From contig NC_089435.1 of assembly GCF_026210795.1 (NCBI RefSeq), forward strand, positions 3,100,001 to 3,164,000: a stretch of 64,000 bases of DNA, in the 5' to 3' direction. The notes beneath the pieces are model-generated. The model had not been told where the DNA came from. It did not search any database and saw only the letters and a list, made by a program, of their open reading frames with translations. The DNA is from Rhizophagus irregularis. Taxonomy: Eukaryota. Below, in pieces: positions 4,886 to 63,710 of the stretch (the first letter of the stretch is position 1; each line of letters begins with the position of its first letter). The translations under genes and the position numbers were made by a program.

Positions 4886-4887
4886 AT

Positions 4888-4905
4888 TGGTGCCTTCTGC
4901 CAGAA
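4888..4905 (+). other. Primer binding site, probably tRNA-His
   Basis: TGGTGCCTTCTGCCAGAA 2 nt after the LTR; complementary to a tRNA ending ...GGCA-CCA, typical of tRNA-His. Confidence 0.65.
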
Positions 4906-4977
4906 ACTAACAAAGAAAACCGACCGTACGATTACCCCTAAATTGATTTGATAACAAAGGATAATATTTCCTATTGT

Positions 4978-6615: not shown

Positions 6616-6650
6616 GTGGTGTATCTACGGGAGGTGTAGATGCGAAACCT
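6606..6650 (+). promoter_or_regulatory. -1 programmed ribosomal frameshift signal (T TTA AAC plus stem/pseudoknot)
   Basis: Heptamer at 6606-6612 just before the gag TAA; pol is in the -1 frame; stem 6620-6628/6636-6644; loop AGGT can pair with ACCT 6647-6650. Confidence 0.8.
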
Positions 6651-9600: not shown

Positions 9601-9749
9601 CAGCGTTATGTCATTTGTTTAATACGGCTACTCCTATCGGAAGATTGGCCCGTTGGGTCATGAAGCTCCAAATGTATGATTTTGAAACCACACATCGCTC
9701 TGGCAAGAAACATCTTAACGTCAATAGTCTATCTCGGATTAGAATCTAG
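6606..9749 (+). pseudogene. pol: pol: aspartic protease, acidic/Cys-rich linker, reverse transcriptase, RNase H; in-frame TGAs at 6717, 7317, 8223
   Basis: LIIDSGA, LRFCVDYR, YPLPRID, MPFGL, YLDD, TDAS motifs, all in one frame. Confidence 0.93.
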
Positions 9750-9839
9750 ATATAAATCTCTTATTTTTATTACCACTCTTTAACATATTTTTTTTTTGAC
9801 GCCGATTTTTGGATAACCCACTGATTTTTAACCCAACCA

Positions 9840-11135: not shown

Positions 11136-11175
11136 TGTTCTCGTTTGCGGGAGCTCACGTTTCGATGGAGGATGA

Positions 11176-12103
11176 TGTTACGCAATAAAATGCACATCCG
11201 ATGTTTGACGTTATTCGATGTTTATATGACGATCTGATATAATTTGTGTCCATGTCGATTTCTATCATTACATAACAATTTATGACCGCAGGTTGTGTAC
11301 ATTAAATTAGCCATATAGATAATATTCTTTATTTTATCAATTTTATTATTATTTTTATTATTAGTTTTACATATGTAGCGATAGAATAATCATATATTAC
11401 AATATTGTTTGTATTATTATTATATTATATTATTTATTGTCTATAATTGTAATTTAAAAGATTATTGATGTATGTTGATGTATAAGATCTATAATAAGAG
11501 TTAATGAAGGATAATTTGATTAATAATAATCAACTGATAGAATTTGTCATTCGTAACTTATCAAAAGGAGGGCTTATAATGGTTATTTTTATCACTATTA
11601 TAGTAATTAGCCATATTACCATGAAACATATTCCGTTATGTGTTTAGAACCTATCGGTAGATTAGATTTTGATATGATAATAGATGGTGTTGGAAAAAGA
11701 GATGGAGAATAGATATAAATACCTTTCACCAACTCGTTGATAAAAGTAGAGAGGACCAAAGATTGTATTTTACCAGCTATAGTAGAAATCCTTTTCCCTA
11801 TCACTTTTTATCATTTATTATCGCTTTGTTGTAAACCCTTAATCCTATCCCTTCATAACGTTATTAATAAAAACTGTTATACATCGTATTGTTAATTATT
11901 GTTTCTGTATGTTTTGATATATTATTCATTTATTACTCGACATGTGTTATCATTATCGTATTTTGTAGGTGTTTATCTTGACGATTCTTAATGAACAATA
12001 CCGGATAAGTAGTGTTGAGTAAGAATCCCGTTGATAACCTGGTGTTTATACGACTTATTTTAACCAACCGTCGACCTTTACTTGCCGATATATTTCGGTA
12101 ACA
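11176..12103 (+). repeat. 3' LTR, preceded by a weak polypurine tract GATGGAGGATGA
   Basis: 928-bp copy of 3958-4885. Confidence 0.97.
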
Positions 12104-12916
12104 ATATCATTATATAAGATAAGTAAATCAATTGGCAATTATTTAAAGTAACAAGATTTCGCAAATTGTTTCAAGAACGGTAAATTTGCAATGTATCATG
12201 TTAATAAATTTAACATAAATTGCTTCTAGTAACTTATATTATTGACTAATTATATATCACGAATATATTAAGTGATTAGTACTTGGACACTAAATTCCAT
12301 TGCTATAATCAAAAGTTCGAGTAGTTTTAGGCCTTATAATTTAAATTTTTTTGCAATAGACGAATCTAAAAATGGAAAATAATGAATATGGCAGATATAA
12401 TTCATCTTTAAAAATATAATGTTTTTTAATTTTATCTTTGAATTTTAAAAGAAATGTAGAATGAAACTTTGCAAATTTTGGAATACATTTAATGCGTAGT
12501 TTAAACGAGTGATTTGTACTACAATCTCCAAATATTATAACATTATTTTATCATAGACGAAATCAAAAAAATCTTTTCACAATAAAAAATATTATCATAG
12601 ATACTGCATTTAATTTTACAAAATCAATGCAAAAGTATTTTCTACTACCTGTCGAAAATGTAATTTCTGTATTTCCTGCTACATCAATTTCGAATTAAAA
12701 AAATAAATGGTCATATTGTTTAGTCGTTTTACAATAATAAATATATTATAACGTGTCATGAATATACAAAGAAAGTGGAAAGAGTTCAACAATTATTAAT
12801 AATGAATAAATAAAAATTTCGTAATAAATATTCCATTCGTAATAACAAATTAAACATTTCTTCTGACAATAAAAATTCCGCCACTTAATACCTAGTGTAC
12901 AAACAATATAGATACG

Positions 12917-14404
12917 CTAATTTGAACATTTCTTAACAACAACTTGAAAAACTTCATAATCAATCATCGTTTCAAATTTGCCTACCGGTATATCTACATC
13001 AGGATAAGAACTGCTACGATCCCTACAACATCTGTTGTTTTTAAAAATTAAATCACCTCCCAAACCAAATATTGGACCAAAGTCACAACGACAAAGTACA
13101 GAATACACATCATTACTATATCCTACTTTTGCACTTTAAAGGATATCTTTATTTGCAAATGAGAATATAAAGCAATCTTTTGTAGACTTCCACTTATCAG
13201 TTAAATCCCACTGAAGTGAAATATATCCTCCAACTATTTGATTCGAATTTGTAATTTTTGCTATAACTATAGTAGCACCTTTATTATCACATTTAGTATA
13301 AAAGTCTGAAGTTGTATTACCATCCCTACTAGCACGATAAAGTAAATTGAAATTATAAGGAATATTCTTTAAATTATAATAAAACTGAATTTTCTTTTCA
13401 ATCCAGCCAGAAAAAATATCAAAATGTTTGTTATAGATGATGACAGAATCATAAACACATTGTTGTTTCCTAGGAAATTGAATATCAACATTTAATCGTA
13501 TGGAGCCATATGAAATACAAGTATATTATTAATTAATTCTTTTGGTAATATTTCTTTATAAGGATATACTTTAGGTGACAAAATTTGCTGAAGGTATATG
13601 ATAAAATCTTATCAACGGAATAAATCTATAAATAGTTCTCTCCATGATTGTAATTTCTTCTTTATTCCATTTATTAACATCTTGTTGAATAGTAGGATGT
13701 TGAGAAAAACACCACTTAATCAAGTTATTCCATATATCAATTTCATCCAATGACAAAATCATTTCGTTTTAAAAGTAATTCTAATAAAGTTGCATTTAAA
13801 TTGATAAATTTATCAGATTTAATAACACATCTGGTTTGTCACAAATTTTTTCAACATAATAATTCCATAAATCTGTGAAAGTTTCACGTTGGTAAACTGT
13901 TTCAAGAATTTCCACAGGGTTATTTTGCAAACATTCATGTTGATGTTTGGTCAAATATTCTTGAATACAAATTATTAATCTTTGGATTTTAAATTCATCC
14001 ACTGCTGATAAAAGCTTTAGAATATCTAGTCCTTGTAATTTCAATAAATAAACCTATTATATTAAAAGAACTTTGTGTCGTTAATTTCGATATATATAGA
14101 GTTATAGACAGTATATACGTTTACTTTTATTATTACTTTTTTTTCATTACCTTAAAATAATTTCAAAAAATTGAGGAGTAATATTAGGAAAATTAAAAAT
14201 AAAATTTCCATCCTTTTTATTGGTCAATTCATTAGAAAGTACCGTACGAAAATATTGAGACCTAATACGTAAAATATTTGAAAACGCATGTATTTCTTTT
14301 ACATTTTCATTGTCACCGGCGTAAATAATAACATCATATCCTTCATCAGTTTCAAATAATTTTTCATAATCATTAGCAAGTTCCTGAGAATATTCAAAAG
14401 ACAT
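12917..14404 (-). pseudogene. BTB-BACK-TLDc pseudogene
   Basis: MSFEYSQELANDYEKL.., one intron, TLDc end (FGPIFG..DYEVFQVV); small deletions and frameshifts relative to 19952-21454. Confidence 0.88.
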
Positions 14405-15921
14405 TTGTTTTTTTAAGAGAGAATTTTTTTTTTTAAAAAAAAACCTTGTATACCATGATCGACGTTTTATTTTGTAATGACGAATCACATGACGAAATTT
14501 ATCAGCTGGAACATTGAATTTTGTTACACAATTATTAATTAAACGATATTTTAATTTATATTTTGGGTTATTTTATTAAAAAATTAATAAATTTGAAGAC
14601 TTTGACGGATGATACTAGGTTCATTACTATCGTCAAAGGATTGAATAGTAGTTGCAAAAAAGAATGAATTACAATATTTATAACTTTATCTTGAATAATT
14701 TTAAATACTTGAGGAGAAAAATTAATTTTATCACCATCATTAAACATTGTTATATTTCATAATTGTTAATGTAGTTTTAATATGTAAATTGATTTTACAA
14801 GAAAAACGTGAATAGAGTAAAACCTTTTATGATGACGTTAGTGCTTAAAAGGTTGCATTATAAATCATCCGAACTTTGACATCATTGGGAAAAAATATTC
14901 TGGTGTCCAGAATATATCTGGAAATTGTCATGAAAATTTGCGTCTAGAAAATGACTCGTTTTTGAGAACATCTTCCGCCTACAATTTGCTTAATTTTTAA
15001 CAGGATATTTTTCTAGGCATTTAGACATTTACTGGACAATTTCCGGACATTCTTTTTTATAGGGAATACCTTGAAATAAACGCTGTGTTATCACTAATTT
15101 GGTTTGGAATGATAACTAACGTCGGAGATGTCAAGCCGATTAGTTATGGCAAAAAGTCAAACAATCAAGATTTATACTGTAGGTGTTTCAATAATATTGT
15201 AACAAAATATATATGTATCACTAATAATTCCCAATAGAAAATTAGTAATAAAAATGTAATTCTGGTAAAATAATGTAAGAGTTTCTTAAGGATAAAAATC
15301 TATCAAACAAATAACGACAAAATACAAAGGTAAAACAAGTAAAACACGCGAAAAGTTTAATACTGAAAAAAAGAAACTAACAATCAAATCAAATAATACT
15401 TCGGATAACACAATCTAAACTCTCTGTTAGATCTACTCAGGTGTTGACAACCTTTATTCAAAAGAAAATATTGCCCTATATATGTTTACATTTTCATACA
15501 TGACAGTTTGAACTTATCAATATTATCCTATTATACTAATATGATTATCAATCAATTGTTCTTTTCTCATTGCAATTATCTGTAAAAACCTTTCTATTAC
15601 CATTTTGTATAAGTTCCATAAGTCTATATGATTCATCAACTATGTAAATCTCAAGAAACTTCTCTAGCTAACTAATAAAGCAATTTTACTAATGTTATAA
15701 TAATTAAACTGATACTTATAATTGAATATTTATGAGTCAAAAGTAATAATAATACTAAAAGTGGTTAATTAATGTAAGTAACTAATAAAACTAAAATATA
15801 TATAAGAAATGTTTCATATTGTAATAAACTCAGTCATGATGGGATTTCTGCGCACTGCATCATGTGACTTGTTCGATCTTCATGGGTAACCCTAACAATA
15901 ATTTTAAATAATCCTATCTAA

Positions 15922-19951: not shown

Positions 19952-21454
19952 TTATTTCTTAACAACTAGAAAAACTTCATAATCATCCGTTTTAAATTTA
20001 TTTAACGGTATACCTACATCAGGATAAGAACTGCTATAACTCCTATACCATCCATTGTTAACAGACAAACCTAAATCATTTCCACTACCAAACAACGGAC
20101 CATAGTTAATATTCCCACCATAGATAGAAAACTCATCACCATTACTATATCCTACTTTTGCGCTTTGTAGGTTATCTTTATTTGCAAATGAGAAAATAAA
20201 GCTATCTCTTGTAGACTTCCATGCACTATTTGAATCCCCATAAAGAAGATTGTATCCTCCAACTATTTGCTCCGAATTTGCAATCTTTACTATAACTATA
20301 GTAGCTCCTTTATTATCACATTTAGCATGAAATGTCGCAATTGTATTACCATCCCTACTAGCACGATAAAGTAAATTGAAATTATAAGGAACATTCTTTA
20401 CATCATAGTATGACTCATTTTTCTTTTCAATCCAGCTAGAAAAAATAGCAAAATGTTTGTTACCAACGATAACAGAATCATAAACACATTTTGGTTTCCT
20501 GGGAGATTGTAAATCCACATTCAATTTCTCATCTGGTGCCATGTGAAATACAAGTATACTATTAACTATATCCTTTGGCAATATTTCTTTAAAAGGATAT
20601 ACTTTAGTAACAAAATCTGCTGAGGGGATTTGATAAAATCTTATTAACGGAATAAATCTATGAATGGTTCTTTCCATAATTACAATTTCTTCTTTATTCC
20701 ATTTATTAACATCTTGTTGAATAGTAGGATGCTGAGAAAAACACCACTTAATCAAGCTATTCCATATAATAATTTCATCCAATGACAAATCATCTCTTTT
20801 TAAAAGTAATTCTAATAAAGGTGCTTTTAAATTGATGAATTTATCAGATTTAAATAATAAATCTGGTTTAGTACAAATTACTTCAAGACAATAATTCCAT
20901 AAATCTGTAAAAGTTTCATGTAAATAGATTGTTTCAAGAATTTCGGTAGGATTTTGTTGTAAAAATTCATGTTGATGTTTAATAAAATATTCCTGAATAC
21001 AAATCACTAGTCTTTGGATTTTAAGTTCATCCGCTGTCGCCAAAAGCTTTAGAATATCTGGTCCCGGCAATTTCTCCAAATCTATCTTTCCACAATAAAT
21101 AAACCTAAATATTAAATGAATATTGCGTCATTAATTTTGACATAGACTGTATATAATATTATGTTTACTTTTAACTTTATTATTACTTGTTTTTTATTAC
21201 CTTAAAATAATTTTAAAAAATTGAGGAGAAATGTTAGGAAAATTAAAAATATATTTTCCATCCTTTTTCTTGGTCAATTCTTTAGAAAAAGCCGTACGAA
21301 AATATTGAGACCTGATACATAAAATAATTGAATGTGAATGTATTTCTTCTACATTTTTATTTTCACCGGCGTAGATAATAACGTTATATTCTTCATCAGT
21401 TTTAAGTAAATTTTCATAATCATCAGCAAGTTCCTGAAAATATTCAAAGGACAT
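19952..21454 (-). CDS. BTB-BACK-TLDc protein, about 468 aa, intact; exons 21454-21201 and 21104-19952
   Basis: BTB (VIIYAGE..HSIIL..RSQYF); GT-AG intron joins ILR-FIYCGKIDL in frame; TLDc (LLYRASRDG..FHAKCDNKG..IVGGYN..DYEVF). Confidence 0.93.
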
Positions 21455-27207: not shown

Positions 27208-28495
27208 CAGTCGCCTCGGAAAGTATCGCCCAATTTTTCGTTGTGTAATGATACACCCAATTTAAATTATTTATACCCCTATTTTTATTATTTTAAATGT
27301 TTTCCTCATAATTTTATGACCTGATGAACACGTTGCACAGTTAAAAAAATTATGTCACATTATACCGAATTATCTCCTCTGGAGAAAGGAAAAATACTAG
27401 CATATATGGAAAATTTTAACCCTGCACAAATAGCAAGAAAAATGGGGCGTGACCCTACCACAATACGTAGATTTATTGACAAATACAAGAAGACAGGGGT
27501 GACTGAAAATTTACCACGATCAGGATGGCCACCTGCTCTCAATAATAATGAGAAAAATGCACTTATAAATGAAGTTAAGAAGAATAGACGCGAACCTTTA
27601 CATGAAATTATTAATACATTGGGCTTAAGTTGCAGTCTAACAACTGCTAGACAGACACTATATGATGCTGGAATCCATTCCCATGTTGCAGCAAAAAAAC
27701 CTTTTGTATCAAAAAAGCATGCATTAGCTCGTGTTAGTTGGTGTGAGAAATATAAAGAAAAAACAATCCAGGATTGGAACCAAGTTATTTTCTCTGATGA
27801 ATCAAGTGTTGAGATTGGCAAGCAGTCAAGACAGATAAGAGTTTGGAGACATACAGGGGAAAGGTTTAACATTGAATGTTTGACACCTACTTTTAAAAGT
27901 GGTCAAAAATCAGTTATGGTTTGGGGATGTTTCCTGGAGGAATAAAAGGACCATTAATTTTTTGTGATGAAAATAAAGAAGGAGATGAAAAAATCAATTC
28001 AAACACTTACATTAGAATCTTAAATTCACATTTATATCCATTTCAACATACAGTTTGCGAATTAACAGGAAGAGCTGCAATTTTCCAACAGGATAATGCA
28101 CCTATTCATACCGCGAAAATAACCAAAAATTGGTTGAAAAAGAATAAAATTGCAATTATTGATTGGCCAGCAAATTCTCCTGATTTAAACCCAATAGAGA
28201 ACATCTGGAAACAATTAAAAGACAATATCCAGGCCCGTAAGACCTTTCCAAGAACTGTGAGTAAACTTAAAGTTGCACTAAGTGAAGAATGGGAAAATTT
28301 GGATTGTTCCATTTTTGAAGAGGTTGTTGCTTCGATGCCACAAATAATCAATGCAGTGTTAGAAGCAAGAGAAGGGCCAACACATTATTAGTTATTTTAG
28401 AAATTATTTTTTTACGTAAAGTTTAATAAAAATCAATAAAATTTGGCTATTTTTGGTATAAATTTTAAATCGGGCAATACTTTCCGAGGCGACTG
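27208..28495 (+). mobile_element. Tc1 (DD34E) DNA transposon
   Basis: TIRs CAGTCGCCTCGGAAAGTAT(C/T)GCCC; TA TSD at 27206-27207 and 28496-28497. Confidence 0.96.
27352..28391 (+). pseudogene. Tc1 transposase with a single frameshift near 27933
   Basis: HTH N-terminus; FSDES, VMVWGCF, FQQDNAPIH, WPANSPDLNPIENIW; 34 residues between D and E. Confidence 0.93.
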
Positions 28496-29144: not shown

Positions 29145-29520
29145 GGATATTATTGTCCATAATGAAGGACATTATTGTCCTCACTTTGTAAGACCATGGT
29201 GGTCCTGGAGGACATTATTGTCCGCGCATTATTGGAGGACCATGATGGTCCTCACCATGGAGGACATTATTGTCCTCACATTACATTATTGGAGGACCAT
29301 GATGGTCCTCACCATGGAGGACATTATTGTCCTCACATTACATTATTGGAGGATCATGATGGTCCTCACCATGGAGGACATTATTGTCCTCACATTACAT
29401 TATTGGAGGACCATGATGGTCCTCATCATGGAAGACATTATTGTCCTTGCATTATTGGAGGACCATGATGGTCCTCACCATGTAGGACATCATTGTCCTC
29501 ACATTATTGGAGGATCATGA
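29145..29520 (+). repeat. 57-bp tandem array of GAGGAC...GTCCTC palindromes (left TIR)
   Basis: Unit GGAGGACCATGATGGTCCTCACCATGGAGGACATTATTGTCCTCACATTACATTATT. Confidence 0.92.
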
Positions 29521-30499
29521 TAGTTCTTATTCTATGAATAATTGAAGGACTAATAAATAGTAAAAAATGATAAATATGTAATTTGTAAATTTAAAAAAAT
29601 TACATATTCAGTTGGCATAAAGTTCTAATCATACAAAATATAATAGAATACCTGTATTTACCACTTATTTTATAATAATAATAAAAAATAAAAAATGCCA
29701 ATAAATTTTATTACACATGATTTTATAAAAAACCAAATTGTAAAATTTTAAATTGCTTCTAAATTAATATTTAAGTAGCTTTCCATATAAATAACAAAAG
29801 ATGATTTATTTGACCAAAATGATGAAATTACATTTTGAAATTAATTTGAAATAGAAAAAAAAAATTAGAAATTAGTATTATTACAAAAAACATATTTTTT
29901 CCTCCAATATTATACCTGCCTTATAAAAACTGAAATTTAAGTAGTTTTAACCTTGCTTAATAACTTTGCTTAAATATAAAATGACCATTTCATTTGACTA
30001 AAATAATGAAATTATACTCTAAATTAGTAAGCAAAAAAATAAATCATAATTTTTTCTATAAATATACTTGTAAAAATTAAGTAATAGCATAATAAAAATA
30101 TATTAATAGTAGAGAATTACTAAACTTAACCTGGGGGAATTTCCCTTTATTTCAATTTTTAATTAAAATATTGACTTGTATAGTAATTTAAGAATAAGAT
30201 TATATGTAAATTTATGAAAAGAAAAGGTTTTATTAAGTTAAAAAGGGTAGTTGTTCAGATGGTTTTTGAGAAAATTACATAATTTTGATTTTATAGTTAA
30301 ATTGTATTTTTCATGATAAAAATTTTTTTTAAAACCAAAAATTGCCAAATTTTTATGCGATTAATATCCACTTATATTTATTTTATATATTTCATAAAAA
30401 AAGTTTATTTTTTTTAAATTTTTAAGGGGGGAGGAATTATCCCCCCGGTTAAGATTAGCAATACTCTTAATAGTAAATATAAATATATATTATGTGACC

Positions 30500-31075
30500 A
30501 TAAAAAAAATAAATAAAAACAAAAAAAAATAACAATAACAAAAAAAAATAACAATAAAAAAAAATAACAATAACAAAAAAAAATAACAATAATAACAAAA
30601 AAAACAACAATAACAAAAAAAAAAACAATAACAAAAAAAAAACAATAACAAAAAAAAAAATAACAATAACAAAAAAAAAAAACAACAATAACAAAAAAAA
30701 AACAACAATAACAAAAAAAAAAAAACAACAATAAAAAAAAAAATAACAATAACAAAAAAAATAATAAAAAAAAAAACAACAATAACAAAAAAAAATAACA
30801 ATAATAAAAAAAAAATAACAATAACAAAAAAAAAAAAATAACAAAAAAAAAACAATAACAAAAAAAAATAAAAATAACAATAACAAAAAAAAAACAACAA
30901 TAACAAAAAAAAAAAAATAACAATAACAAAAAAAATTAACAATAACAAAAAAAAATAACAATAAAAAAAATAACAATAAAAAAAAAATAACAATAACAAA
31001 AAAAAAAAATAACAATAAAAAATAACAATAACAAAAAAAAAAAAATAACAATAACAAAAAAATAAAAAAAAAAGG
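30500..31075 (+). repeat. Low-complexity (TAACAA-TAAC-A(n)) minisatellite
   Basis: Directly visible; explains the spurious F/L/C-rich ORFs. Confidence 0.95.
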
Positions 31076-31593
31076 AAAAGAAAAAAGAAAAATAAAAAAC
31101 CAATCATTACATACAGTAAATGATTTGCATGATCATGACAATTGATCACTTATAAACTTAAAATTTACATTATTTTAAATTAAAATGATCATTTTTTTTC
31201 ACCTCTATCATATTTAAATTTATTTTTCTCTCTTTTCCAACTTTTTTATTTTAAAAACTTTATTATTTTCCTTTATTTTAATTTTATTATTTATTTTATT
31301 TATTTTCTTATTTTTTTATTTTTATTTTTATTTTTATTTTTATTTTTTGTTATTATTTTTTTGTTTTTATTTTTTTTTAGTTTTTTTTTACTAAAAATAA
31401 CCATATAATACATATGGCCTGATTTGTCTACCTTTAATTAAAATATTAATTTTATTACATTTTTATTATACAAAATACTATATAATATACAGTAAATTGG
31501 AAATGAGTATTAAAAATTTTTATTTAATGTTATTATACTATAATTTGGTAAATATTTCTTTTAAATTAATATAATTCTTAGTACTTACTATAT

Positions 31594-34984: not shown

Positions 34985-35330
34985 AGAACCATCATAGTCC
35001 TTTAATAATGTGAGAACAATCAATAATGTAATGTGAGGACAATAATGTCCTATCATGGTCCCCCAATAATGTAATGTGAGGACAATAATAGTGTCCTCTA
35101 TAGTGAGGACCATCATGGTCCTCCAATAATGCGTGGACAATAATGTCCTCCATGGTGAGGACCATCATGGTCCTCCAATAATGTGCGGACAATAATGTTC
35201 TCCTACATAGTAAGGACAATAATGTCCTTCATAATGAGGACTAACATGGTCTATTGTCCTCAATATGAGAATGATAATGTCCTTGATGGTGAGGTCCAGT
35301 ATAGTCCATTATTATGGACAATAATATCCT
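34985..35330 (-). repeat. 57-bp palindromic tandem array (right TIR)
   Basis: Reverse complement of 29145-29520. Confidence 0.9.
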
Positions 35331-39686: not shown

Positions 39687-41260
39687 GATCGCCGGTCATG
39701 TGATTATTCGATTAACACTATTATAAAAAAAATTTACTTTTTTTTTTGCTTCCCGGTAACTGGCGTCATTTTAATATTATTAAGTAATAGTTCTATCAAT
39801 TTTTTTTAGTAATAACAATAAGTTTTGGTGATAAGAATATTTTTTTTTTGTAACAATAGATTTGATAATGGGAATTTTTTTTTGATATAAATTTTTTTTA
39901 AATATATTACTATGATATAATCTTCTGTAATAATACATTCGTATGATAATATTCTTGATGAGAAATTTATATTTTTTTTTGGAACAATTAATTATTCGAG
40001 TCTGAATAAACCATAAATTCTATAATACTTAATATAATAATCATATTGTAAATATAACTACTGTATGTTCAGTATTATATTAAATACAAATCTACATGAT
40101 TGTAAAAGTTAAATAAAATAATAATGCTCTAACCATTATATATTAATAATTAGTAAATACATTAGCTCATTAAACTAGATAAATTCATTACTGTAGAAAG
40201 TTATTTATGTTTTATTATAAAGAAAATTTTAAATTTTAATGAAAGCCTAATTAATAGACTCTAAATATAGGTAATTAGGTGCCATATTACTTTATTACTG
40301 TAACATTGTTTTTTTTAATCCGGTAAATGGTTTATTTTAAGATATCTATCAAGACTTTGCTTGTCCAATTTAATTGAATATTTCACCCTTTGTCATTAAT
40401 AATTTTCGCAGTTGGTTTATCATTCTCATAGTTCTCTGCAAAATCCAAGATTTAAATCTAAAATATTATATTCCTTTATCAATGAATTAATAAAAAAATT
40501 AGTTACGTTCTAATTATAATTCTTAAATTAAATGTAAATTTACGAAAGTGACTTAAAATTTGTAGAAGCTTACCATAAAAATTAGAAATCCTATCTTATT
40601 GAACGAAATGTTTTTTTTTTTAGAATTGTGTGCACATTAAATTTATAATTAATTATGTTTGATATTTGCACAACGGAAATCTCTGCGTAGTAATCATTGT
40701 TTTTTTATTGTTCCTCTACATTCTCGGACAACAAAGGCTTTTTAAAAAGGTTTTATGGGTCATATAATTTATATATTAATTGATTAAGAAAGTCAAAAAA
40801 AAAATTTTATTATTTTCACGCTAAGTTAATGCAACTGCGCCATATTATTGTCCCCACGTGAATTTTCTGCAAGAAGGAGCCGAGCAATACATAGAAAGGT
40901 AACCCAAATAAAGTGTAGATCCTTCCTTTTTGTTAATGACAGGCGGCATTATGTCATTCCCTGAAGAGATACATAGAGCTAATAGTGAATGAGTGCCAAT
41001 CTCTTGTTACCTATTTATATATTGCAAAGTTCCGTTACTTCGATACCTATAGAATTTATTTATTCTTTGATGGAATTCTTGTTAAATTTCATTCCAAAAT
41101 AAGCTTCTAGATTATTTACTCGCAAGGAATGAATGCATAGAATTTTTCATGGAAATTTGGAAAAAAATTCCGTGTTAAATTTTACTACATATATATATAC
41201 TAGAAAGTTTACTTGAACGTTACAAATAAATGAAATTTTTATTTTAGATAATTTGAAGTA

Positions 41261-43289
41261 ATGGAGCAACCAGTATATTATAAACATAAAATTGACTTTT
41301 TAATATCGGACAACACGCCTTCAATTCAGCCGACACAAAACTCACAAAACATATATAAGAAATGTAATGAATGTAATAGAAAAAGAAAAATTTTTGATAA
41401 AAGTCACGAGATTTGTCACGTGTGTTACAATATAAAGACTATACTTAAGCCTAAACAAAGTGGAAACAAAGTTGTTGACGATTTTATCAGATATACTCAA
41501 AGTAATTATGCTTTTATAGAAGATGGTAAAATGGAGCTTATTCCTTATGATCAATTCACCAATATAGAATTTATTGCTGAAGGAGGATTTAGTAAAATTT
41601 ATAAAGCTACTTGGGTTGATGGTCCTATCAATAATTGGAATAGGATTAAAGATGATTATTGGAATATTACTCGTAGAAAAAATTATACCGTTGTTCTCAA
41701 AAAGCTTAACAATTCTAAAAACATTACACCCAAGGAACTGAATGAGGTATGGCAAATTCTATATGTTTTAAATCTTCAATATGATGATGATAAATTAATT
41801 AGTTCAAGATATTTTATCAGATTTATTCAGATAAGAATGCACATAAAAGTTATATTAGTAATTATTTTGGAATTACTCAAGATCCTATTACCAAAGATAT
41901 TATAATTATTATGCCATATTATAATTCAGGTGATTTGATACATTATATAAGTAACGAATTTTATAATATTAATTGGGGAACAAAGTTGAATAAATTATGT
42001 TATATAGCAATTGGACTTAATAATATACACAAAGCAAAAATTGTTCACAGGGATTTACATAGTGGAAATATCTTCTTCGATGGACATACTGCGCATATAG
42101 GTGATCTTGGAATAAGTAAATCTGCAATTGAATGTACAGAAGATAGCAATGAGAATTATGGTATTATTCCTTATATGGCACCAGTTATTTTTCAAGGGCA
42201 AAAATATACAGAAGCTTCGGATATATATAGTTATGGGATGATTATGTGGGAATTTATGACAGGTAGAAGGCCTTTTTGGAATGAAAATCATGATATTGAA
42301 CTTATAATCAAAATATGTGATGGTTTACGACCATCAATTGTTACAAATGCACCTAAAGAATATATTGAATTAATGAAAGAATGCTGGCATTCTGATCCAG
42401 AACAAAGACCAAATGTTAATAATATATCTGGCAAAATTTGGGCAATGTTTATAAATGAAAATGATAGTACAAGTTTAACTAAAATTATAAAATCATCAGA
42501 TATTGGACCTGTAACAATAAATAATCTAGGCGCCGTTTATAAGAGTAGACCTTTAAGTCACATGATTCAATCTGCAATGTCATTAAGGAGTTCAAGAAGT
42601 CAATCTATCGGTAAATAATTTTATTATACTGAATACTGCAGAAAAATTCTGACTTTTTTTTTAATAATTATTTAGATCCATTAGATCCATTTTATTATTA
42701 TCAGAAAAATAGCAAGGCATCTTCTGCTGGTAATTACTCGGGTTTCGTTTAATGTGACGTTTGTATTAATATTAATAATATTATAATTTTAAAGATAAAA
42801 GAAAGGTTGATAAAGGTTCGGTTGAAGACAGTAATATCAACGGTATGATAAAGTTAGATTCCATGCATAATTATCTAATAAAAATTGATAACCCTATATA
42901 TTTTATTGTGTCTTCAATTATTTTAATTTTCATTTACGAATTTTTTTTAAAAATACAATTTAGATCAAAGTATTAAAAGGAGAAAATTATTTGAGAATGA
43001 AAATTATGGTAAGCAAATTCTATTTTTAGATAAATAACATTTTTATTATTATGTAAATTCTTAACTTTAAATAGATTTAAATTCTTCTTTAGATTATCTT
43101 ACGAAAGAAATCGAATTAGATATTAACGCAAATATGAGTCAACAACAACATAACGGTGAGTAAATACTCTGTTTTTCTTTTAAAAATATATAAATAATAG
43201 TTTTAATTTTTTTTTAATTTATAAAAATAGAATATGTTACCAAGGAATTTGATATAGATATTAATAATATTGATGAGTCAAATTTATAG
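41261..43289 (+). CDS. TKL-type protein kinase; exons 41261-41746, 41803-42610, 42676-42729, 42795-42842, 42964-43008, 43093-43155, 43231-43289
   Basis: CxxC..CxxC N-terminus, SGNKVVDDFI, EGGFSKIYKA, VVLK, HRDLHSGN, DLG, APV, ECW..RP; all GT-AG junctions join in frame. Confidence 0.9.
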
Positions 43290-48369: not shown

Positions 48370-48806
48370 TATAAAATAATTAAAAATTACATGAATGAGG
48401 TTGCATTACGAATTCCAGAAAAAATCAAAATCCTGATAATTTTTTAATTTTATCCCATAGTTTTGTTAATTGGAAATTACATGAGACAAAAACACTTATT
48501 TTCACGGTTAGTCTGATGATCAGAATAGTCAACCTACAGCAGATAGTAAACGATTTCTGAAATTAAGTGCACCAAAACTCTTTATGAATCTGAGACAAAA
48601 TGTAAATAATACGATTTATTTCCGATCTCAGAATCATAGAAAGAATTTCAAATTTCGAAATGATATTTAAAAAAGCTTAATAAAGAATAAGATTTGCGCA
48701 AATAACTAGCCTATACCATATTGATATACGTAATAAGAGTGTATAAATAGTGTGATCTCCTACATTTACATCCTTCTACAAAAACAACTTAAAGCACAAG
48801 TAGAGT

Positions 48807-49526
48807 ATGTTTGCTAAATTGTGTATATACGCTTTCTCTTTAATTGCGATCACAACTATAACCATAGGAGTACCTCTAGAGGTATCATCAAAATTGACTA
48901 GTCGCCGTGCTCAATTGGAAAAGTATGGAACACTGAATCAGCAGTCTCTGAGTCGTCGTGGACATTTGAATAAGCGATTTCAACTTGTCGAGTGTTTAGA
49001 TGGGAACGATGTACTCATTGATTCATATTGTGACAAATTAAGAAAAATAATTGTTCATTGTCAACATCCTGATGGTAAACTCATCACTTTTAATAAATCA
49101 TGTAAAAAGGACGAAGTTTGTATTGATTATAATGATGCTAATGAAAATCATCAGTCAGTTTGTATGGAAAAGCTATATATCAGAACATGGACTAGTATTG
49201 AATATAATAAACTTTCCTGTTCATCTGATACAGCATACATTCAAGGAGGAGATTTGCATACCGGAGTGAATACGTATGATGGAGATGGGAATCCAGCGGA
49301 AGTGTATGAACTGCAGACGTTTTTGTCAGAACAAGTAGTTGAATCTAACTTTTATAAACACAATATCACTAAAGATTTCCATGATTATAGAAATACTGAA
49401 AGGATCAAATACTGTTTCATTCCAGGCAGCAATCTTAAAATAACAGCTTATGCTGTAGCTATAAATTTTGATCCTAGAGCGGGAAATGATAAAGGAACGC
49501 CTGTACTGGTTGCACCATCGGAATAA
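48807..49526 (+). CDS. Secreted Cys-rich protein, 239 aa, effector-like
   Basis: Hydrophobic signal peptide; dibasic RR/RR/KR sites; 8 Cys after KR; intronless; TATAAATA at about 48742. Confidence 0.85.
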   Translation: MFAKLCIYAFSLIAITTITIGVPLEVSSKLTSRRAQLEKYGTLNQQSLSRRGHLNKRFQLVECLDGNDVLIDSYCDKLRKIIVHCQHPDGKLITFNKSCKKDEVCIDYNDANENHQSVCMEKLYIRTWTSIEYNKLSCSSDTAYIQGGDLHTGVNTYDGDGNPAEVYELQTFLSEQVVESNFYKHNITKDFHDYRNTERIKYCFIPGSNLKITAYAVAINFDPRAGNDKGTPVLVAPSE

Positions 49527-53772: not shown

Positions 53773-54826
53773 AATTATATTTACAATAATGTAACTATTT
53801 ATATTAATGATTTGACGTTTGAGTGTAGAATGAAATTCGAATTAATTAAGAAATTGTGAAAAATAATTATCAAAAGTATTTTCGATATTATGAAAATACT
53901 ACAAATATTATTGTTAATTAATTATAAATTTTATAATTATTTCTTATTATTATTTTATATTACGTCAATCTTAAACTTATAACCAACTTAGGAAAAATAT
54001 TCGAAGTTTCGAACAATTAAATGTATTAGAATCTGTTATTTCATTTCATTTATTATTATTCTTTTGATATTCATTTTAAACCATTTGAATTAAAATTTTT
54101 ATTCAAAAATCTGGTGATTATTTAAAAAATTTCGGATATGGATTTGATTATAATAATCTATTATTAAATCAACAATTTCTTCAATTAACTAATTATAAAA
54201 TATTTTTTTTGATATTTATGAATTTAAAAATCAAACTATTTATCCAGCGTTCAATTTAATTGAAAAAACCTTAATTATCTTTCTATCAATGTTGGTTAAT
54301 TTCCTATATGTTACTTGATTTTTTTTTAAAAAATAATAATTTTTGTAAATATATTTATATTTCTTTATTTAATAATAAAACAAAATAAAAAAAAATTGGG
54401 GAAATGAAAAAGAATAAAAAAAGAAATCGGTTTAAAAAAGGGAGAAAAAAAGGAACCTGAAAAAAAATAAGTACCGAAAAAATTCTGAAAAAAAGGGACA
54501 ATAATTCGGTCCAAAAAGAGTGAAAAAAAAAAACTAAAAAAAATAACAATACGGTAATATAAAAAAAATCGGTCTTTAAAAGACCGAAACAATAGGATTA
54601 GATAATAATAAAATAATTTTCTGTTTGTAGCTACGGCGGGCCATATAAGTATTACATATACATTCTGGTTATGCAAAATTTGTTTGTCATATATACAATG
54701 ATGCAATGCTTGTACTTGTGATCAACGCCTTTGCACATAATGTATTTTGCATAAATATTATTAAAAAAAAAAGAAAAAAAAATATTTACTTTGTCTTTTT
54801 CAATTAGGGAGAATTTTGATATAGCA

Positions 54827-57800
54827 ATGGACCAATGTATTGGTAAAGGTAAAGCATATAACATGAATAATAATATAAATTAGAATTATTCAAAATTATT
54901 AAAACAAACTTGCAATATAATAAAACTAGTTTTGTGTGATACCAAAGAACCCAAAGGTAAATATAATATACAAAACAAAATTGAAATATTAAGATTTTTA
55001 TTTATTAAAAAAACTTAATTATAAATAATCAAATATATTAAACCAAATTTGCAATATAATAAAACTAGTTTCCAGTAATATTGAAGAATTTGAAGAAAGT
55101 GGCACTGAAGAATTTGAAAGAAGTAGCATTGAGAAATTTGAAGAAAGTGGCACTGGAGAATCTAAAGGTATATCAAACAAGCTAAAATATTAAATTTTTA
55201 TTTATAAACAATTCAAATACTATCTAGGCTAACTATTTTATATAAAAATTATATTAAATATTTAGCTTGTAAGTTAATATAATGAATTACTCATTATTTT
55301 TATTGTATTCCATATAACTAAATAATTTATTTAATGATTAATAATACTGTAGTTGGTAAGTAATTGTTATCGGTCATGTTGTAGATGATAACTGATTTAC
55401 CACTAGGATTGCTATGTATATCATATGACCGAAGGCCGCATGATAGAGTAGCATCCTAGTGTAAATCAGTTATCATAAACATGACTGATAATAAAGTTAT
55501 TGGATATGTATGACGTAAAGCAACTGAGACCTTTTTCGCGTATCTTATTTATTATTTTATAATAATGTGATCAAAATTTTGTATATCACTAATTATAAAG
55601 TGACCAAAATTTGTGTATCACTATTATAAAGTGATCAATAACATACGTGAAAAATGTCCAGTGCTTACATAGAACATATACAATAAGTTATCAGTTATTT
55701 AAACCTTTAGTCCTTTACTACTTTATTTATTCTAACATAACATTCAAATAACTAAATTCTTTGTTTAAATAACTATTTAATTATTAATTATATTACAGAT
55801 AGTAAGTTACAATATATATATTATATTTATTTGTTTAATATTTTATATAATTCAACTAATTATATTCTTAATTTAAATAACTAGATTGTAAGTAATATAT
55901 ATAATATACAGTAAATACTTTTATATTATCTTTATATTTAACTAATTAATAATTAATAATACTACAGGGTGTAAGTTATATGATGTCTATATTGATATTA
56001 TTTATATAATTTAACAAATTTCTTTATTTAAAAATTATTAAATAATATAGGGTGTAAGTTATTTATTTAATTCTATTATTACTTATTGTTATAATATTTA
56101 CATATAATTTAGACTAACTAATTTCTTTATTTAAAAAATTATTAAATAATATAGTTCGTAAGTTTTTTATTATTACTTATTGTTATAATATTTACATATA
56201 ATTTAAACTAACTAATTTCTTTATTAGTTCGTAAGTTAATTTATTTAATTCTATTATTACTTATTGTTATAATATTTACATATAATTTATACTAACTAAT
56301 TTCTTTATTTAAAAAATTATTAAATAATATAGTTCGTAAGTTATTTATTTAATTCTATCATTACTTATTGTTATAATATTTACATATAATTTAGACTAAC
56401 TAATTTCTTAAAAAATTATTAAATAATATAGCTCGTAAGTTATTTATTTAATTTTATTATTACATATTGTTATAATATTTACATATGATTTAAAGTTTTC
56501 AACTAACTAATTTCTTTATTTAAAAAATTATTAAATAATATAGCTCGTAAGTTATTTATTTAATTCTATTATTACTTATTGATATAATATTTACATATAA
56601 TTTAAACTAACTAATTTCTTTATTTAAAAATTATTAAATAATATAGAGAGTAAGTTATTTATTTAATTCTATTATTCTTATTGTTATAATATTTACATAT
56701 AATTTAAACTATCTAATTTCTTTATTAGTTCGTAAGTTATTTATTTAATTCTATTATTACTTATTGTTATAATATTTACATAATTTAAACTAACTAATTT
56801 CTTTATTTAAAAAATTATTAAATAATGTAGGGCGTAAGTTATTTATTTAATTTTATTATTACTTATTGTTATAGTATTTACATATAATTTAAACTAACTA
56901 ATTTCTTTATTTAAAAAATTATTAAATAATATAGTTCGTAAGTTATTTATTTAATTCTATTATTACTTATTGTTATAATATTTACATATAATTTAAACTA
57001 ACTAATTTCTTTATTTAAAAAATTATTAAATAATATAGAGAGTAAGTTATTTATTTAATTCTATATTCTATTATTACTTATTGTTATAATATTTACATAT
57101 AATTTAAACTATCTAATTTCTTTATTTAAAAAATTATTAAATAATATAGTTCGTAAGTTAATTTATTTAATTCTATTATTACTTATTGTTATAATATTTA
57201 CATATAATTTAAACTAACTAATTTCTTTATTTAAAAAATTATTAAATAATATAGCTCGTAAGTTATTTATTTAATTTTATTATTACTTATTGATATAATA
57301 TTTACATATAATTTAAACTAACTAATTTCTTTATTTAAAAAATTATTAAATAATATAGTTCGTAAGTTATTTATTTAATTCTATTATTACTTATTGTTAT
57401 AATATTTACATATAATTTAAACTAACTAATTTCTTTATTTAAAAAATTATTAAATAATATAGAGAGTAAGTTATTTATTTAATTCTATATTCTATTATTA
57501 CTTATTGTTATAATATTTACATATAATTTAAACTATCTAATTTCTTTATTTAAAAAATTATTAAATAATATAGTTCGTAAGTTAATTTATTTAATTCTAT
57601 TATTACTTATTGTTATAATATTTACATATAATTTAAACTAACTAATTTCTTTATTTAAAAAATTATTAAATAATATAGCTCGTAAGTTATTTATTTAATT
57701 TTATTATTACTTATTGATATAATATTTACATATAATTTAAACTAACTAATTTCTTTATTTAAAAAATTATTAAATAATATAGTTCGTAAGTTATTTATTT

Positions 57801-60800
57801 AATTCTATTATTACATATTGTTATAATATTTACATATAATTTAAACTAACTAATCTCTTTATATTTAAAAACATTATTTAATAATATAGCTCGTAAGTTA
57901 TTTATTTAATACTATTATTACTTATTGTTATAATATTTACATATGATTTAAACTAACTAATTTCTTTATTTAAAAAATTATTAAATAATATAGTTCGTAA
58001 GTTATTTATTTAATTCTATTATTACTTATTGTTATAATATTTACATATAATTTAAACTAACTAATTTCTTTATCTAAAAAATTATTAAATGATATAGTTC
58101 GTAAGTTATTTATTTAATTCTATTATCACTTATTGTTATAATATTTACATATAATTTAAACTAACTAATTTCTTTATTTAAAAAATTATTTTGTAATTAT
58201 TTTAGTTGGTAAGTCATAAGTTATTTATTTAATTCTATTATTACTTATTGTTATAATATTTACGTATAGTTTAAACTAACTAATTTCTTTATTTAATAAA
58301 TTATTTAATAATATAGAGAGTAAGTTATTTATTTAATTTTATTATTACTTATTGTTATAATATTTACATATAATTTAAACTAACTAATTTCTTTATTTAA
58401 AAAATTATTTTGTAATTATTTTAGTTGGTAAGTCATAAGTTATTTATTTAATTCTATTATTACTTATTGTTATAATATTTACATATAATTTAAACTAACT
58501 AATTTCTTTATTTAAAAAATTATTAAATAATATAGAGAGTAAGTTATTTATTTAATTCTATTATTACTTATTGATATAATATTTACATATAATTTAAACT
58601 ATCTAATTTCTTTATTTAAAAAATTATTAAATAATATAGAGAGTAAGTTATTTATTTAATTCTATTATTCTTATTGTTATAATATTTACATATAATTTAA
58701 ACTAATTAATTTCTTTATTTAAAAATTATCAAATAATATAGAGAGTAAGTTATTTATTTAATTCTATTATTACTTATTGTTATAATAATTACATATAATT
58801 TAAACTAACTAATTTCTTTATTTAAAAAATTATTAAATAATATAGAGAGTAAGTTATTTATTTAATTCTATTATTACTTATTATTATATTATTTACATAT
58901 AATGTAACTAACTAATTTCTTTATTTAAAAATTATCAAATAATATAGAGTGTAAGTTATTTATTTAATTCTATTATTACTTATTGTTATAAACTAACTAA
59001 TTTCTTTATTTAAAAAATTATTAAATAATATAGGGCGTAAGTTATTTATTTAATTTTATTATTACTTATTGTTATAATATTTACATATAATTTAAACTAA
59101 CTAATTTTTTTATTTAAAAAATTATTAAATAATATAGGGCGTAAGTTATTTATTTAATTTTATTATTACTTATTGTTATAGTATTTACATATAATTTAAA
59201 TTAACTAATTTCTTTATTTAAAAAATTATCAAATAATAGAGTGTAAGTTATTTATTTAATTCTATTATTACTTATTGTTATAAACTAACTAATTTCTTTA
59301 TTTAAAAAATTATTAAATAATATAGGGCGTAAGTTATTTATTTAATTTTATTATTACTTATTGTTATAGTATTTACATATGATTTAAATTAACTAATTTC
59401 TTTATTTAAAAAATTATTAAATAATATAGAGAGTAAGTTATTTATTTAATTCTATTATTACTTATTGTTATAATATTTACATATAATTTAAACTAACTAA
59501 TTTCTTTATTTAAAAAATTATTTTGTAATTATTTTAGTTGGTAAGTCATAAGTTATTTATTTAATTCTATTATTACTTATTATTATATTATTTACATATA
59601 ATGTAACTAACTAATTTCTTTATTTAAAAAATTATTTATGATCTAGCTTGTAAGTGTCTCTATTGTTATATATTTTATATAATATTTATTGGTTAACTGA
59701 ATTCTTTTATTTGAAAAATATCTGTTACTTTAGTCGGTAAGTTGTAAGTCATAGGTTATTATATGTATTTATCTAAAAATTAAGACTTATATTTCATTAA
59801 ATCCCTATTTAAATTTTAGAGTAAGTAATAATTTATTTTGTATAAATTATAATATAATCTACAATATAATTTTAACTATTTAAATTTATAGATTTGGGAA
59901 AAGTGGAAATACAATTATAGATGATTTTGTTCTTAAAAAACGATTAAAATGGATTCCTTATAACAAATTTAAAAATGTTGAATATCTTAATGAAGGAGGA
60001 TTTGGTACTATATACAAAGCTAATTGGTCAAATGGAGTTGGAGAAGTAATACTTAAATGTCACAAGAATTTAAATGAAAATTTAAATGAATTTTTGAAAG
60101 AAGTATGATAGTATATTATTTTCTATTTTTAATTTAAATTAAAATTTATTTATAATAATAAATTATTATTATTATTTTATAGTGGGAATATCATACAAGT
60201 GTTTTAAGTTCAATCAATATTATAGATATTTATGGATTCACAAAAGATCCAAATACATCGAAATATATGGTAGTAATGGATTATGCAAATAAAGGTAATT
60301 TAAGAGAAAATTTAACAAGTATAGTCAAAAATAATTGGAATCAAAAATTATATATGTTGTACGAAATTATTTCTGGACTTAGTAAGATACATGAAAAAAA
60401 TCTTATTCATTGTGATTTTCATGATGGTAATATTTTAAATCATAGTAATAAGGATAAGGATAAAATTTATATTAGTGATTTAGGATTATGCCAACCTATA
60501 AAATCATTTTTGGAAAAATATGATATTTATGGTGTTATATCATTTATGGCTCCTGAAGTTTTAAGAGGCAAATCTTATACTCCAGCTAGTGATATATATA
60601 GTTTTTCTATGATTATGTGGGAACTTACATCTGGGGTACCACCATTTAATAATAGAGCACATGATATTCAACTTAGTTTGAGTATTTGTAAAGGTGAACG
60701 TCCTGAAATTATTGAAAATACTCCACAATGTTATGTAGATTTAATGAAAGAATGTTGGAATGAAGATTCATCAAAAAGACCATCTTCTAAAGAAGTATTA

Positions 60801-61378
60801 GAAATTATTGAAAAATGGATTTTCCGTCCTGATGATGATGAAATTAATGAAGAATTAGAAAGCAACATTATGGAATTTATAAATGCACCAATTGGGCATA
60901 ACAATCTTGCTACTAAATCTCATCCTAAAGCATGTTTTACAAGTCGCTTACTTGATTTTACTAGTAAAAAATTGAATGAAATTCTTGAAAATGAAAATAC
61001 ACAAGCATCTCATGCAAGTCATTCAGATTTGAATGATTGTGTAATTAGAGGAGATTTGATGTCATTAGGTATATACTATAATATATAAAAAATTAATCTT
61101 GCAAATTATTTATATGAAATTAATTAATTTATTTAATTATTCAGATGAGAATACTAGTAAAAAGTTGAATGAAATTCCTGAAAGTGAAAATTCACAAGCT
61201 AGTGTAAAAGCAAATGAAATGCTAGTAAGTGAAGATTTGAATGATTATATAATTAAGGGTCTGGGGTCATTAGGTATGTACTATGATATATAAAAGAATT
61301 AATCTTGTAAATTATTTATGTGAAATTAATTTTATTTAATATTTAATTTATTTAGATATTAAAGCAAATGAAAATTAA
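54827..61378 (+). CDS. TKL-type protein kinase with a microexon array; exons 54827-54842, 54930-54956, 55069-55167, [42 x 3 nt], 59820 (1 nt), 59892-60102, 60183-61068, 61145-61273, 61356-61378
   Basis: MDQCI-VLCDTKEPK-VSSNIEEF..GESK-[array]-EFGKSGNTIIDDF..KWIPY..EGGFGTIYKA..ILK..HCDFHDGNIL..DLG..APE..ECW..RP; every junction is GT-AG and in frame. Confidence 0.85.
55266..59820 (+). other. Array of 42 putative 3-nt microexons plus one 1-nt exon
   Basis: Every unit reads yAG|NNN|GTAAGT; the homogenised unit carries a CTAAC/CTAAT branch site about 35 nt upstream of the AG. Confidence 0.85.
56010..59640 (+). repeat. ~104-bp tandem repeat (one intron + one 3-nt exon), about 35 homogenised copies
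   Basis: Consensus GTAAGTTATTTATTTAATTCTATTATTACTTATTGTTATAATATTTACATATAATTTAAACTAACTAATTTCTTTATTTAAAAAATTATTAAATAATATAG-NNN. Confidence 0.97.
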
Positions 61379-62899: not shown

Positions 62900-63710
62900 A
62901 ATGTTCGTGGAGAATTTTTTCTTTTTTTTTTATTAGATTTTTTATAAAATAAAATTTTGGTGTTTTTTTTAATATAGGTAAAGCTCTTCTTTGATGGCAA
63001 TTTCTTTGAGTAATTTTCTTTAATAGAAAAGAATTTTTTTTTTGATAAAATATTTCGTTCGAGAATTTTTTTTATTGATGAGGGAAATTTCCTTTAATAG
63101 AGGAGTTTTTTTTTATGGATAATTTTGTTAAAGAATTTTTAATAAGGAGATTTTTTTTGACAGATAATTTCTTTGGAATTTTTTTTTTAACAGGAGAGAT
63201 TTATTTTTTATAGAGAATTTCATTGAGAATTTTTTAATAGGGAAGAATTTTTTTTCTTGATAGATAATTTTTTTAGAAAATTATTTTAGCAGGGATATTT
63301 TTTTTTTGATAAAGACTTTCATTAAGAATTTTTTTAACAGGAGAGATTTATTTTTGATAGAGAATTTCATTGAGAATTTTTTAATAGGGAAGAATTTTTT
63401 TTCTTGATAGATAATTTTTTTAGAAAATTATTTTAGCAGGGATATTTTTTTTTTGATAAAGACTTTCATTAAGAATTTTTTTAACAGGAGAGATTTATTT
63501 TTGATAGAGAATTTCATTAAAGAATTTTTCTTTAATAGGGAGATAAATAATATTGCTGAGAATCTTTTTATAGAAATTACATTGTGGAATTTTTTTTTTA
63601 ATAGAAAAGAAATTATTTTTTTTGATAGTTCGTTAGTAAATTTTTTAACAGAGGGGATTTTTTTTTTGATAGAATTTCGGTAAAGAATCCTTTCTTAATA
63701 ATAGGGAAGG
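62900..63710 (+). repeat. Degenerate ~30-bp tandem repeats with a recent ~146-bp duplication (63183-63520)
   Basis: TTTTAACAGGAGAGATTTA...GACTTTCATTAAGAA repeated. Confidence 0.75.

What the first reader, a model, noticed from the sequence alone, without database searches (positions are those of the whole stretch)
55167..59892. Phase-1 microexons: each amino acid is specified by a pair of neighbouring exons
Each codon is the last base of one exon plus the first two bases of the next. Including all exons gives a stop-free insert: GESK-AFDNWWFLLPPQIRLQIPLQIPLPLLLEIEKKKKWRQWQIAF-E-FGKSGN. Skipping would therefore change residues, not only delete them. Some skips create stops: a T-ending exon + AGA/AGT gives TAG, and a T-ending exon + the 1-nt A gives TAA. 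None of these adjacencies exists in genomic order, which is suggestive but weak with only 7 T-ending exons. The start FDNW resembles the F.NW(T)SGN motif usually found just before the kinase domain in this family, so the array may be inserted within that motif (inference).
Basis: partly seen in the sequence, partly recalled or inferred. Interest (0 to 1): 0.78.

Follow-up and report, generated by a model that had tools for sequence, protein, structure and literature searches.

The report
One-codon exon array in fungal kinase
A kinase gene of a plant-root symbiotic fungus has 42 three-base exon-like units and one single-base unit in a row, one base out of step with the codons so that each amino acid would be spelled by two neighbouring exons; related genes make RNA with matching strings, and the array likely lets the fungus reshuffle a short variable peptide one residue at a time.

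Summary
Confirmed: 42 YAG-NNN-GTAAGT units plus one 1-nt unit lie at 55266-59820, between exon 3 and the kinase exons of a Rhizophagus irregularis-type TKL kinase. The only ATG leading in reads them in phase 1, and full inclusion is stop-free. RNA from paralogues leaves the exon-1 or exon-3 donor straight into strings of like triplets, one matching window exons 2-6 at 13 of 15 bases. The 1-nt unit is kept in 2 of 2 same-subfamily loci. Core introns are nearly identical (diversity 0.037) while the triplets are hypervariable (0.51-0.71) and recombined. Best reading: a codon cassette spliced mostly in order and reshuffled in DNA; skipping is not shown, and one paralogue's 25 reads agree at 0.98. 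Stop avoidance is weak (P=0.08). The 'inside F.NWTSGN' idea is unsupported. No RNA across this array or its 3' end was obtained. Precedent: Tuber nank 3-bp mini-exons; the scan also noted shorter arrays in kinase-HET genes of other fungi.

The parts
54808..54848 (+). Exon 1 with ATG at 54827; ends in phase 1
   Evidence: RNA depth and joints
54930..54956 (+). Exon 2 (27 nt, phase 1-1); paralogue RNA shows 27, 18, 9 and 0 nt versions
   Evidence: (tables 5, 5c)
55069..55167 (+). Exon 3 (99 nt, acidic 24-bp repeats); donor at 55168 is phase 1
55266..56053 (+). Microexons 1-6 (CTT 55266, TTG 55353, ATA 55799, ATT 55885, GGT 55968, GGT 56051), mostly in diverged introns; homologous triplets seen in paralogue RNA
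55362..55689 (.). Palindromic insert in the 443-bp intron; folds into two long hairpins; other copies appear to lack it
   Evidence: (X1 loose end at 55361)
56054..59540 (+). Homogenised core: 34 intron+triplet units of about 104 bp (microexons 7-40: TTC, CTC, AGA, GGC, TTG, AGT), with a 424-bp higher-order duplication
59647..59743 (+). Microexons 41-42 (CTT 59647, TCG 59734); a tandem donor at 59744 allows an alternative 10-nt exon 59734-59743
59820..59820 (+). Predicted 1-nt exon (A) that closes the frame into the phase-2 kinase exon
   Evidence: kept in L001 and L002; not seen in RNA here
59892..60102 (+). First kinase exon (FGKSGN..IDDF helix, G-loop, VILK lysine)
60183..61068 (+). Main kinase exon (PF07714/PF00069; TKL-like)
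61145..61273 (+). C-terminal exon
   Evidence: matches P0001
61356..61378 (+). Last coding exon with stop codon
   Evidence: read; matches the end of P0001

Best explanation
The stretch is an array of 42 three-base and one single-base exon-like units in a Rhizophagus-type tyrosine-kinase-like gene, which likely are spliced mostly in genomic order, in phase 1, into a 43-residue segment between an acidic N-terminus and the kinase, and which likely are diversified mainly in DNA by crossing-over and gene conversion between near-identical ~100-bp introns. Each such exchange would add, remove or swap single codons without shifting the frame, and because exon edges cut codons it often makes a new residue too. 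The 1-nt exon (or the 10-nt variant at 59734) would be needed to close the frame. The variable peptide is inferred to set binding or recognition specificity of the kinase. Shown: the units, the open phase-1 frame, triplet hypervariability, recombination signs, like triplets in paralogue RNA. Inferred: splicing of this copy's core, use of the 1-nt exon, the function.
For: Splice signals invariant in 34 of 34 core introns while the 3 exon positions carry 7 extra alleles against 0.34 per intron column (Poisson P about 1e-4; diversity 0.51-0.71 against 0.037). Near-identical introns (at most 1 difference) are followed by a wholly different triplet in 6 of 17 pairs; 14 of 66 informative site pairs fail the four-gamete test; a 516-bp exact repeat at period 424. 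Paralogue L002 has an array intron 89% identical to the core unit while its kinase exons are 77-81% and its last intron 64% identical. In one search, 7 of the 20 listed loose ends (130 not shown) cross the exon-1 or exon-3 donor in RNA or RNA-like runs; all 7 start with triplets like window exons 1-6, are stop-free in phase 1, and 48 of 48 whole triplets have T or G in the middle (hand count) like 41 of 42 in the window, against 58% T/G wobble in the kinase exons. One set of 25 polyA reads agrees at 0.98, and a 465-nt contig runs unbranched 318 nt past exon 3. 10 of 82 public models carry a G/I/L/M string here, the look of such an array read in phase 0.
Against: No RNA read across this array or its 3' junction was obtained; most laid reads are paralogues (only 20 of 220 X24 reads are 99% or more alike) and X3 and X5 are only guessed to be RNA. 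That the paralogue strings come from microexons in their own genes is inferred. One loose end has agreement 0.69 and the strings start at different triplets (exon 1, 2 or 4 type), which may be skipping. Paralogue differences fall at triplet position 3, the wobble of phase 0, and phase 0 is also stop-free within the array. The middle-base bias does not lower stop risk here (0.044 against 0.033). No test of function.
Confidence: 0.55

Rival explanations
1. Combinatorial exon skipping is the main source of diversity, as reported for Tuber nank genes: each transcript picks a subset of triplets, and stop-forming joins are removed by NMD.
For: Identical signals in every core unit; about 1.1e10 distinct stop-free peptides possible and only 54 of 946 forward joins make a stop; one RNA loose end with agreement 0.69 and varying first triplets; precedent cited in PMC4986451, PMC13449251, PMC9815663.
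Against: 25 reads agree at 0.98 over about nine triplets; an unbranched 465-nt contig (contigs drop rare forms). At 50% inclusion 41% of isoforms would carry a stop.
Confidence: 0.25
2. A few real microexons exist, but the 104-bp core is a neutral minisatellite expansion whose copies are mostly skipped or harmful; the gene may be decaying.
For: Recent exact duplications; decayed units in L002; a mobile-looking insert in one intron; stop-free order has P=0.08 only.
Against: A neutral satellite should vary evenly, yet variation concentrates on the triplet and spares both splice sites; the kinase frame is intact; public models show 25-45-residue strings at this place in 10 of 82 cases.
Confidence: 0.13
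3. The array is read in phase 0 (hydrophobic, Gly-rich peptide) with a 5-nt exon before the kinase, as gene finders call it, or it lies in an untranslated leader.
For: Phase 0 is open through exons 2, 3 and the array; paralogue changes sit at triplet position 3; the T/G middle base would mean hydrophobic or Gly codons; 12 of 59 models read SK before FGK.
Against: No ATG in that frame and a stop at 54822-24; exon-1 and exon-2 variants all keep the phase-1 frame of the ATG; the 5-nt exon needs a weaker donor than the GTAAGT used by all units.
Confidence: 0.07

Closest known systems
Tuber melanosporum nank (NACHT-ankyrin) genes with dozens of 3-bp mini-exons (Iotti et al. 2012, PMID 22289772; not held, seen only as cited in passages of PMC4986451, PMC13449251, PMC9815663)
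   Same: Tens of codon-sized exons in an expanded signalling gene family of a mycorrhizal fungus; proposed to diversify a recognition region.
   Different: Here a Glomeromycotina TKL kinase without NACHT or ankyrin; N-terminal position; phase 1 with a 1-nt closing exon; introns homogenised into a tandem repeat with signs of DNA exchange; skipping not shown. The phase of the Tuber exons could not be checked.
One-codon exon arrays in kinase-HET and HET genes of other fungi (earlier scan notes e1-7577901, e1-7124557, e1-9906124; unchecked)
   Same: Consecutive 3-nt exons; one note reports divergence concentrated on the exon codon between near-identical introns.
   Different: The notes that give counts have 4-7 units and a HET domain; here 42 units, no HET domain, phase 1.
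Fungal NLR repeats with high internal conservation shuffled by unequal crossing-over, and brown-algal exon-shuffled NB-ARC-TPR/ROCO genes (passages of PMC9815663, PMC13449251)
   Same: Near-identical repeats used as recombination substrate to vary a candidate recognition region.
   Different: The unit shuffled here is one codon carried by an intron repeat, not a protein repeat.
Single-nucleotide exons (Arabidopsis, PMC4674806, listing and abstract start only; 13 1-nt and 27 3-nt exons in Coprinopsis cinerea, passage of PMC12230235)
   Same: 1-nt and 3-nt internal exons are spliced in plants and fungi.
   Different: Those are isolated (27 three-base exons in 26 genes), not arrays of 42.

Membership tests
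Tuber nank mini-exon genes | NACHT and ankyrin domains | tested here: not met
   Pfam finds only kinase families in the main exon and nothing in exon 3 or the first kinase exon
Tuber nank mini-exon genes | Dozens of 3-bp exons in a row | tested here: met
   42 units
Tuber nank mini-exon genes | Extensive alternative splicing of the mini-exons | tested here: inconclusive
   Paralogue loose ends with agreement 0.69, 0.83 and 0.98; no reads across this array
Tyrosine-kinase-like (TKL) kinases expanded in Rhizophagus | PF07714 domain, nearest solved relatives in the TKL group | tested here: met
   PF07714 E=5.8e-35; CTR1, RIPK1, TAK1, ZAK, Roco4 and one EGFR chain; expansion noted in a passage of PMC4219462
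Tyrosine-kinase-like (TKL) kinases expanded in Rhizophagus | Catalytic activity | not testable with these tools
   G-loop, VILK lysine, catalytic D and N, DLG and APE are visible in the model (motif names recalled)
F.NWT-SGN kinase subfamilies of Glomeromycotina | SGN..IDDF segment before the kinase | tested here: met
F.NWT-SGN kinase subfamilies of Glomeromycotina | NW(T) before SGN, usually with CxxC upstream | tested here: not met
   FGK instead; CxxC in 102 of 143 NWT sites and 0 of 13 FGK sites; no NWTSGN among 190 close homologues
Kinase-HET one-codon arrays (scan notes) | HET domain | tested here: not met

The most novel reading that the evidence does not exclude
A whole subfamily of arbuscular-mycorrhizal kinases carries a natural peptide-library generator: tens of phase-1 one-codon exons, exchanged between paralogues in DNA and also skipped combinatorially in RNA, build a W/Y/D/G/R-rich variable segment that acts as a receptor-like specificity module for non-self recognition, and it has been missed because gene finders misread it.
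Probability: 0.25. Interest if true: 0.9.

Novelty: new variant of a known kind. Interest (0 to 1): 0.72.

Why it matters
If spliced as modelled, one gene joins 43 consecutive exons of 1-3 bases, an extreme case for the spliceosome, and codons are built across exon edges so that reshuffling makes new residues. The layout recurs in paralogues, and public models of this subfamily break, skip or misframe it (ragged N-termini; the acidic N-terminus called as a separate gene), so many Rhizophagus kinases are likely misannotated. It offers a testable source of variation for the large, unexplained kinase expansion of these crop-root symbionts, and points to convergence with Tuber nank genes.

Tried and rejected
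No own genome was held. The run search listed no holder on record as RNA; only the 5' flank was laid with reads. The metagenome scan gave 3 loci with 125-338 bases upstream, too short for whole arrays. Protein searches for RNA-derived N-termini returned named genome-based models or unnamed proteins, none with a phase-1 array peptide that I could recognise. Stop avoidance in exon order: P=0.08, not significant. An 'NNK-like, shuffle-proof' reading of the T/G middle base was rejected for this array: it removes TGA and (except via the 1-nt exon) TAA, but the stop risk is 0.044 against 0.033 under kinase-like wobble; the codon-class count on the G/I/L/M strings is circular because they were picked for that content. 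The fold of homologue P0154 (pLDDT 56) only places the segment before the kinase; its insert is a gene-finder model, and the spliced window protein was not folded. Iotti 2012 is not held. Paper searches found no report of microexon arrays in Rhizophagus (3, 3, 0, 0 and 2 papers listed; judged from titles and abstract starts, and from passages for PMC4219462); subscription papers and supplements were not seen and may hold one. Scan look-ups by place, by sequence and one by words were blank.

Full report
Observation. The window is AT-rich eukaryotic DNA; the main kinase exon is 99% identical to a Rhizophagus irregularis protein, and all named hits among the best 120 of 735 are Rhizophagus. Between the donor at 55168 and the acceptor at 59891 lie 42 units YAG-NNN-GTAAGT and one TAG-A-GTAAGT. 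The pattern with three bases occurs once elsewhere in the window on both strands. Introns are 70-109 bases except one of 443; most have a CTAAY branch-like site and few inner AG. Most units form a 104-bp tandem repeat.

Gene model and phase. Exons 54808-54848 (ATG 54827), 54930-54956 and 55069-55167 all end in phase 1, and the first kinase exon starts in phase 2, so 3n+1 bases must lie between. Phase 0 is also open through exons 2, 3 and the array, but has a stop at 54822-24 and no ATG; phase 2 is closed. A second way to close the frame is a 10-nt exon at 59734-59743 through the tandem donor; models such as P0023 and P0037 read GKL-FG there.

RNA. Reads were laid on 54600-55540 only. The raw polyA run X24 gave 220 reads, 20 of them at least 99% alike, so most are paralogues. 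Depth peaks on exons 1-3. Joints in X5 show exon-2 versions of 27, 18, 9 and 0 bases, all keeping the frame. Of 20 listed loose ends (130 more not shown), 7 cross the exon-1 or exon-3 donor in X24, X3 or X5 (the last two only guessed to be RNA). All 7 run on into triplets like window exons 1-6: one matches exons 2-6 at 13 of 15 bases (chance about 0.003 after allowing for offsets), another matches the first two bases of exons 1-4. By hand count 48 of 48 whole triplets have T or G in the middle, as do 41 of 42 window units, against 58% T/G at kinase wobble sites. Read in phase 1 they are stop-free and rich in D, W, Y, N, G and R. An unspliced X3 record shows TAG-TCA-GTAAGT where the window has exon 2 of the array. 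Agreement of X24 read sets is 0.98 (25 reads), 0.83 (25) and 0.69 (17). A 465-nt X5 contig with one mismatch to exon 3 leaves at the donor and runs 318 further bases. No read across this array or its 3' end was obtained, so splicing of the core and of the 1-nt unit stays inferred.

Relatives. Of 3 metagenome loci, the 2 of this subfamily (82% and 71% protein identity) keep TTTAG-A-GTAAGT one intron before the kinase exon; the third (52%) has none. L002 also has TAG-ATT-GTAAGT and an intron 89% identical to the core unit, more than its kinase exons (77%, 81%) or last intron (64%). Public models have ragged starts at this junction (SK, LE, KL, YR or none before FGK; 59 of 190 scored), often call the acidic N-terminus as a separate gene, and 10 of 82 with at least 20 upstream residues carry G/I/L/M strings like the window's phase-0 reading. 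That these are misframed arrays is inference.

Evolution of the array. In 34 core units both splice sites never vary; intron diversity is 0.037 and exon positions 0.71, 0.51 and 0.59; 7 extra alleles at 3 positions against 0.34 per intron column (P about 1e-4, also without the TTG units, which have their own flanks). Near-identical introns precede wholly different triplets in 6 of 17 pairs, 14 of 66 site pairs fail the four-gamete test, and four units are duplicated exactly. This is what recombination between homogenised introns with diversified codons would leave; a neutral satellite would not spare the signals and vary the triplet.

Phase-1 arithmetic. Of 42 single skips 24 only delete, 16 delete and change a residue, 2 make a stop; 54 of 946 forward joins are stops; about 1.1e10 stop-free peptides are possible in theory; 8.2% of shuffled orders are stop-free. 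The T/G middle base remains unexplained: it does not lower stop risk here.

Position in the protein. The kinase is TKL-like. In the wider family N-F-x-N-W-T precedes SGN in 143 of 221 sites, mostly after a CxxC segment (102 of 143); the model's F-E-F-G-K aligns to it with F at -5 and no gap. The array therefore takes the place of the upstream segment rather than splitting the motif. A low-confidence fold of homologue P0154 shows a disordered acidic N-terminus, a weak insert region and the IDDF helix before the N-lobe. A role in recognition or partner choice is inferred from position, variability and residue content (likeness to antibody loops is recalled, not tested).

Known systems. Tuber melanosporum nank genes have dozens of alternatively spliced 3-bp exons (passages of PMC4986451, PMC13449251, PMC9815663; the original is not held). 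Isolated 1- and 3-nt exons occur in Coprinopsis (passages of PMC12230235). TKL expansion in R. irregularis is noted in a passage of PMC4219462. Searches found no report for Rhizophagus; subscription papers and supplements were not seen. Earlier scan notes describe shorter arrays in kinase-HET genes (unchecked). The gene works like the nank array but is not a member: no NACHT or ankyrin domain.

Verdict. A real feature and a new variant of a known kind: 42 units, phase 1, a 1-nt closing exon, homogenised introns shared between paralogues, in a new lineage and protein family. Best explanation 0.55, skipping-driven 0.25, neutral satellite 0.13, phase 0 or untranslated 0.07. Interest 0.72.

Noticed in passing
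window 4000-12105: LTR retrotransposon: 888-bp direct repeats at 4000-4887 and 11218-12105 (98.6% alike) around gag/pol-like frames split by stops; Ty3/gypsy likeness is recalled.
   Followed up: partly
window 55362-55689: Palindromic insert in the long array intron; the intron folds at -144 kcal/mol into two long hairpins that would bring its ends close.
   Followed up: partly
window 41252-42618: Second TKL-type kinase with a CxxC segment before SGN and no microexons upstream.
   Followed up: partly
L002 125-175: Two units with CAA that have lost a good donor or the acceptor AG, apparently decaying.
   Followed up: no
window 54878-54932 and 55017-55071: The acceptor regions of exons 2 and 3 are 87% alike, a sign of an old exon duplication.
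   Followed up: no
window 19952-21127 and 13136-14572 (minus strand): BACK plus TLDc gene (Pfam) and a similar-looking neighbour.
   Followed up: partly
window 27328-28391: Two frames that look like a Tc1/mariner-type transposase (likeness recalled, not searched).
   Followed up: no
window 48804-49526: 240-residue frame with a hydrophobic start and several cysteines, no Pfam match; may be secreted.
   Followed up: partly
window 29206-29521, 35021-35236, 30502-31099, 63106-63529: Other tandem repeats (57-bp, related 27/52-bp, a 598-bp A-rich run, 48/147-bp); none has the microexon pattern.
   Followed up: partly
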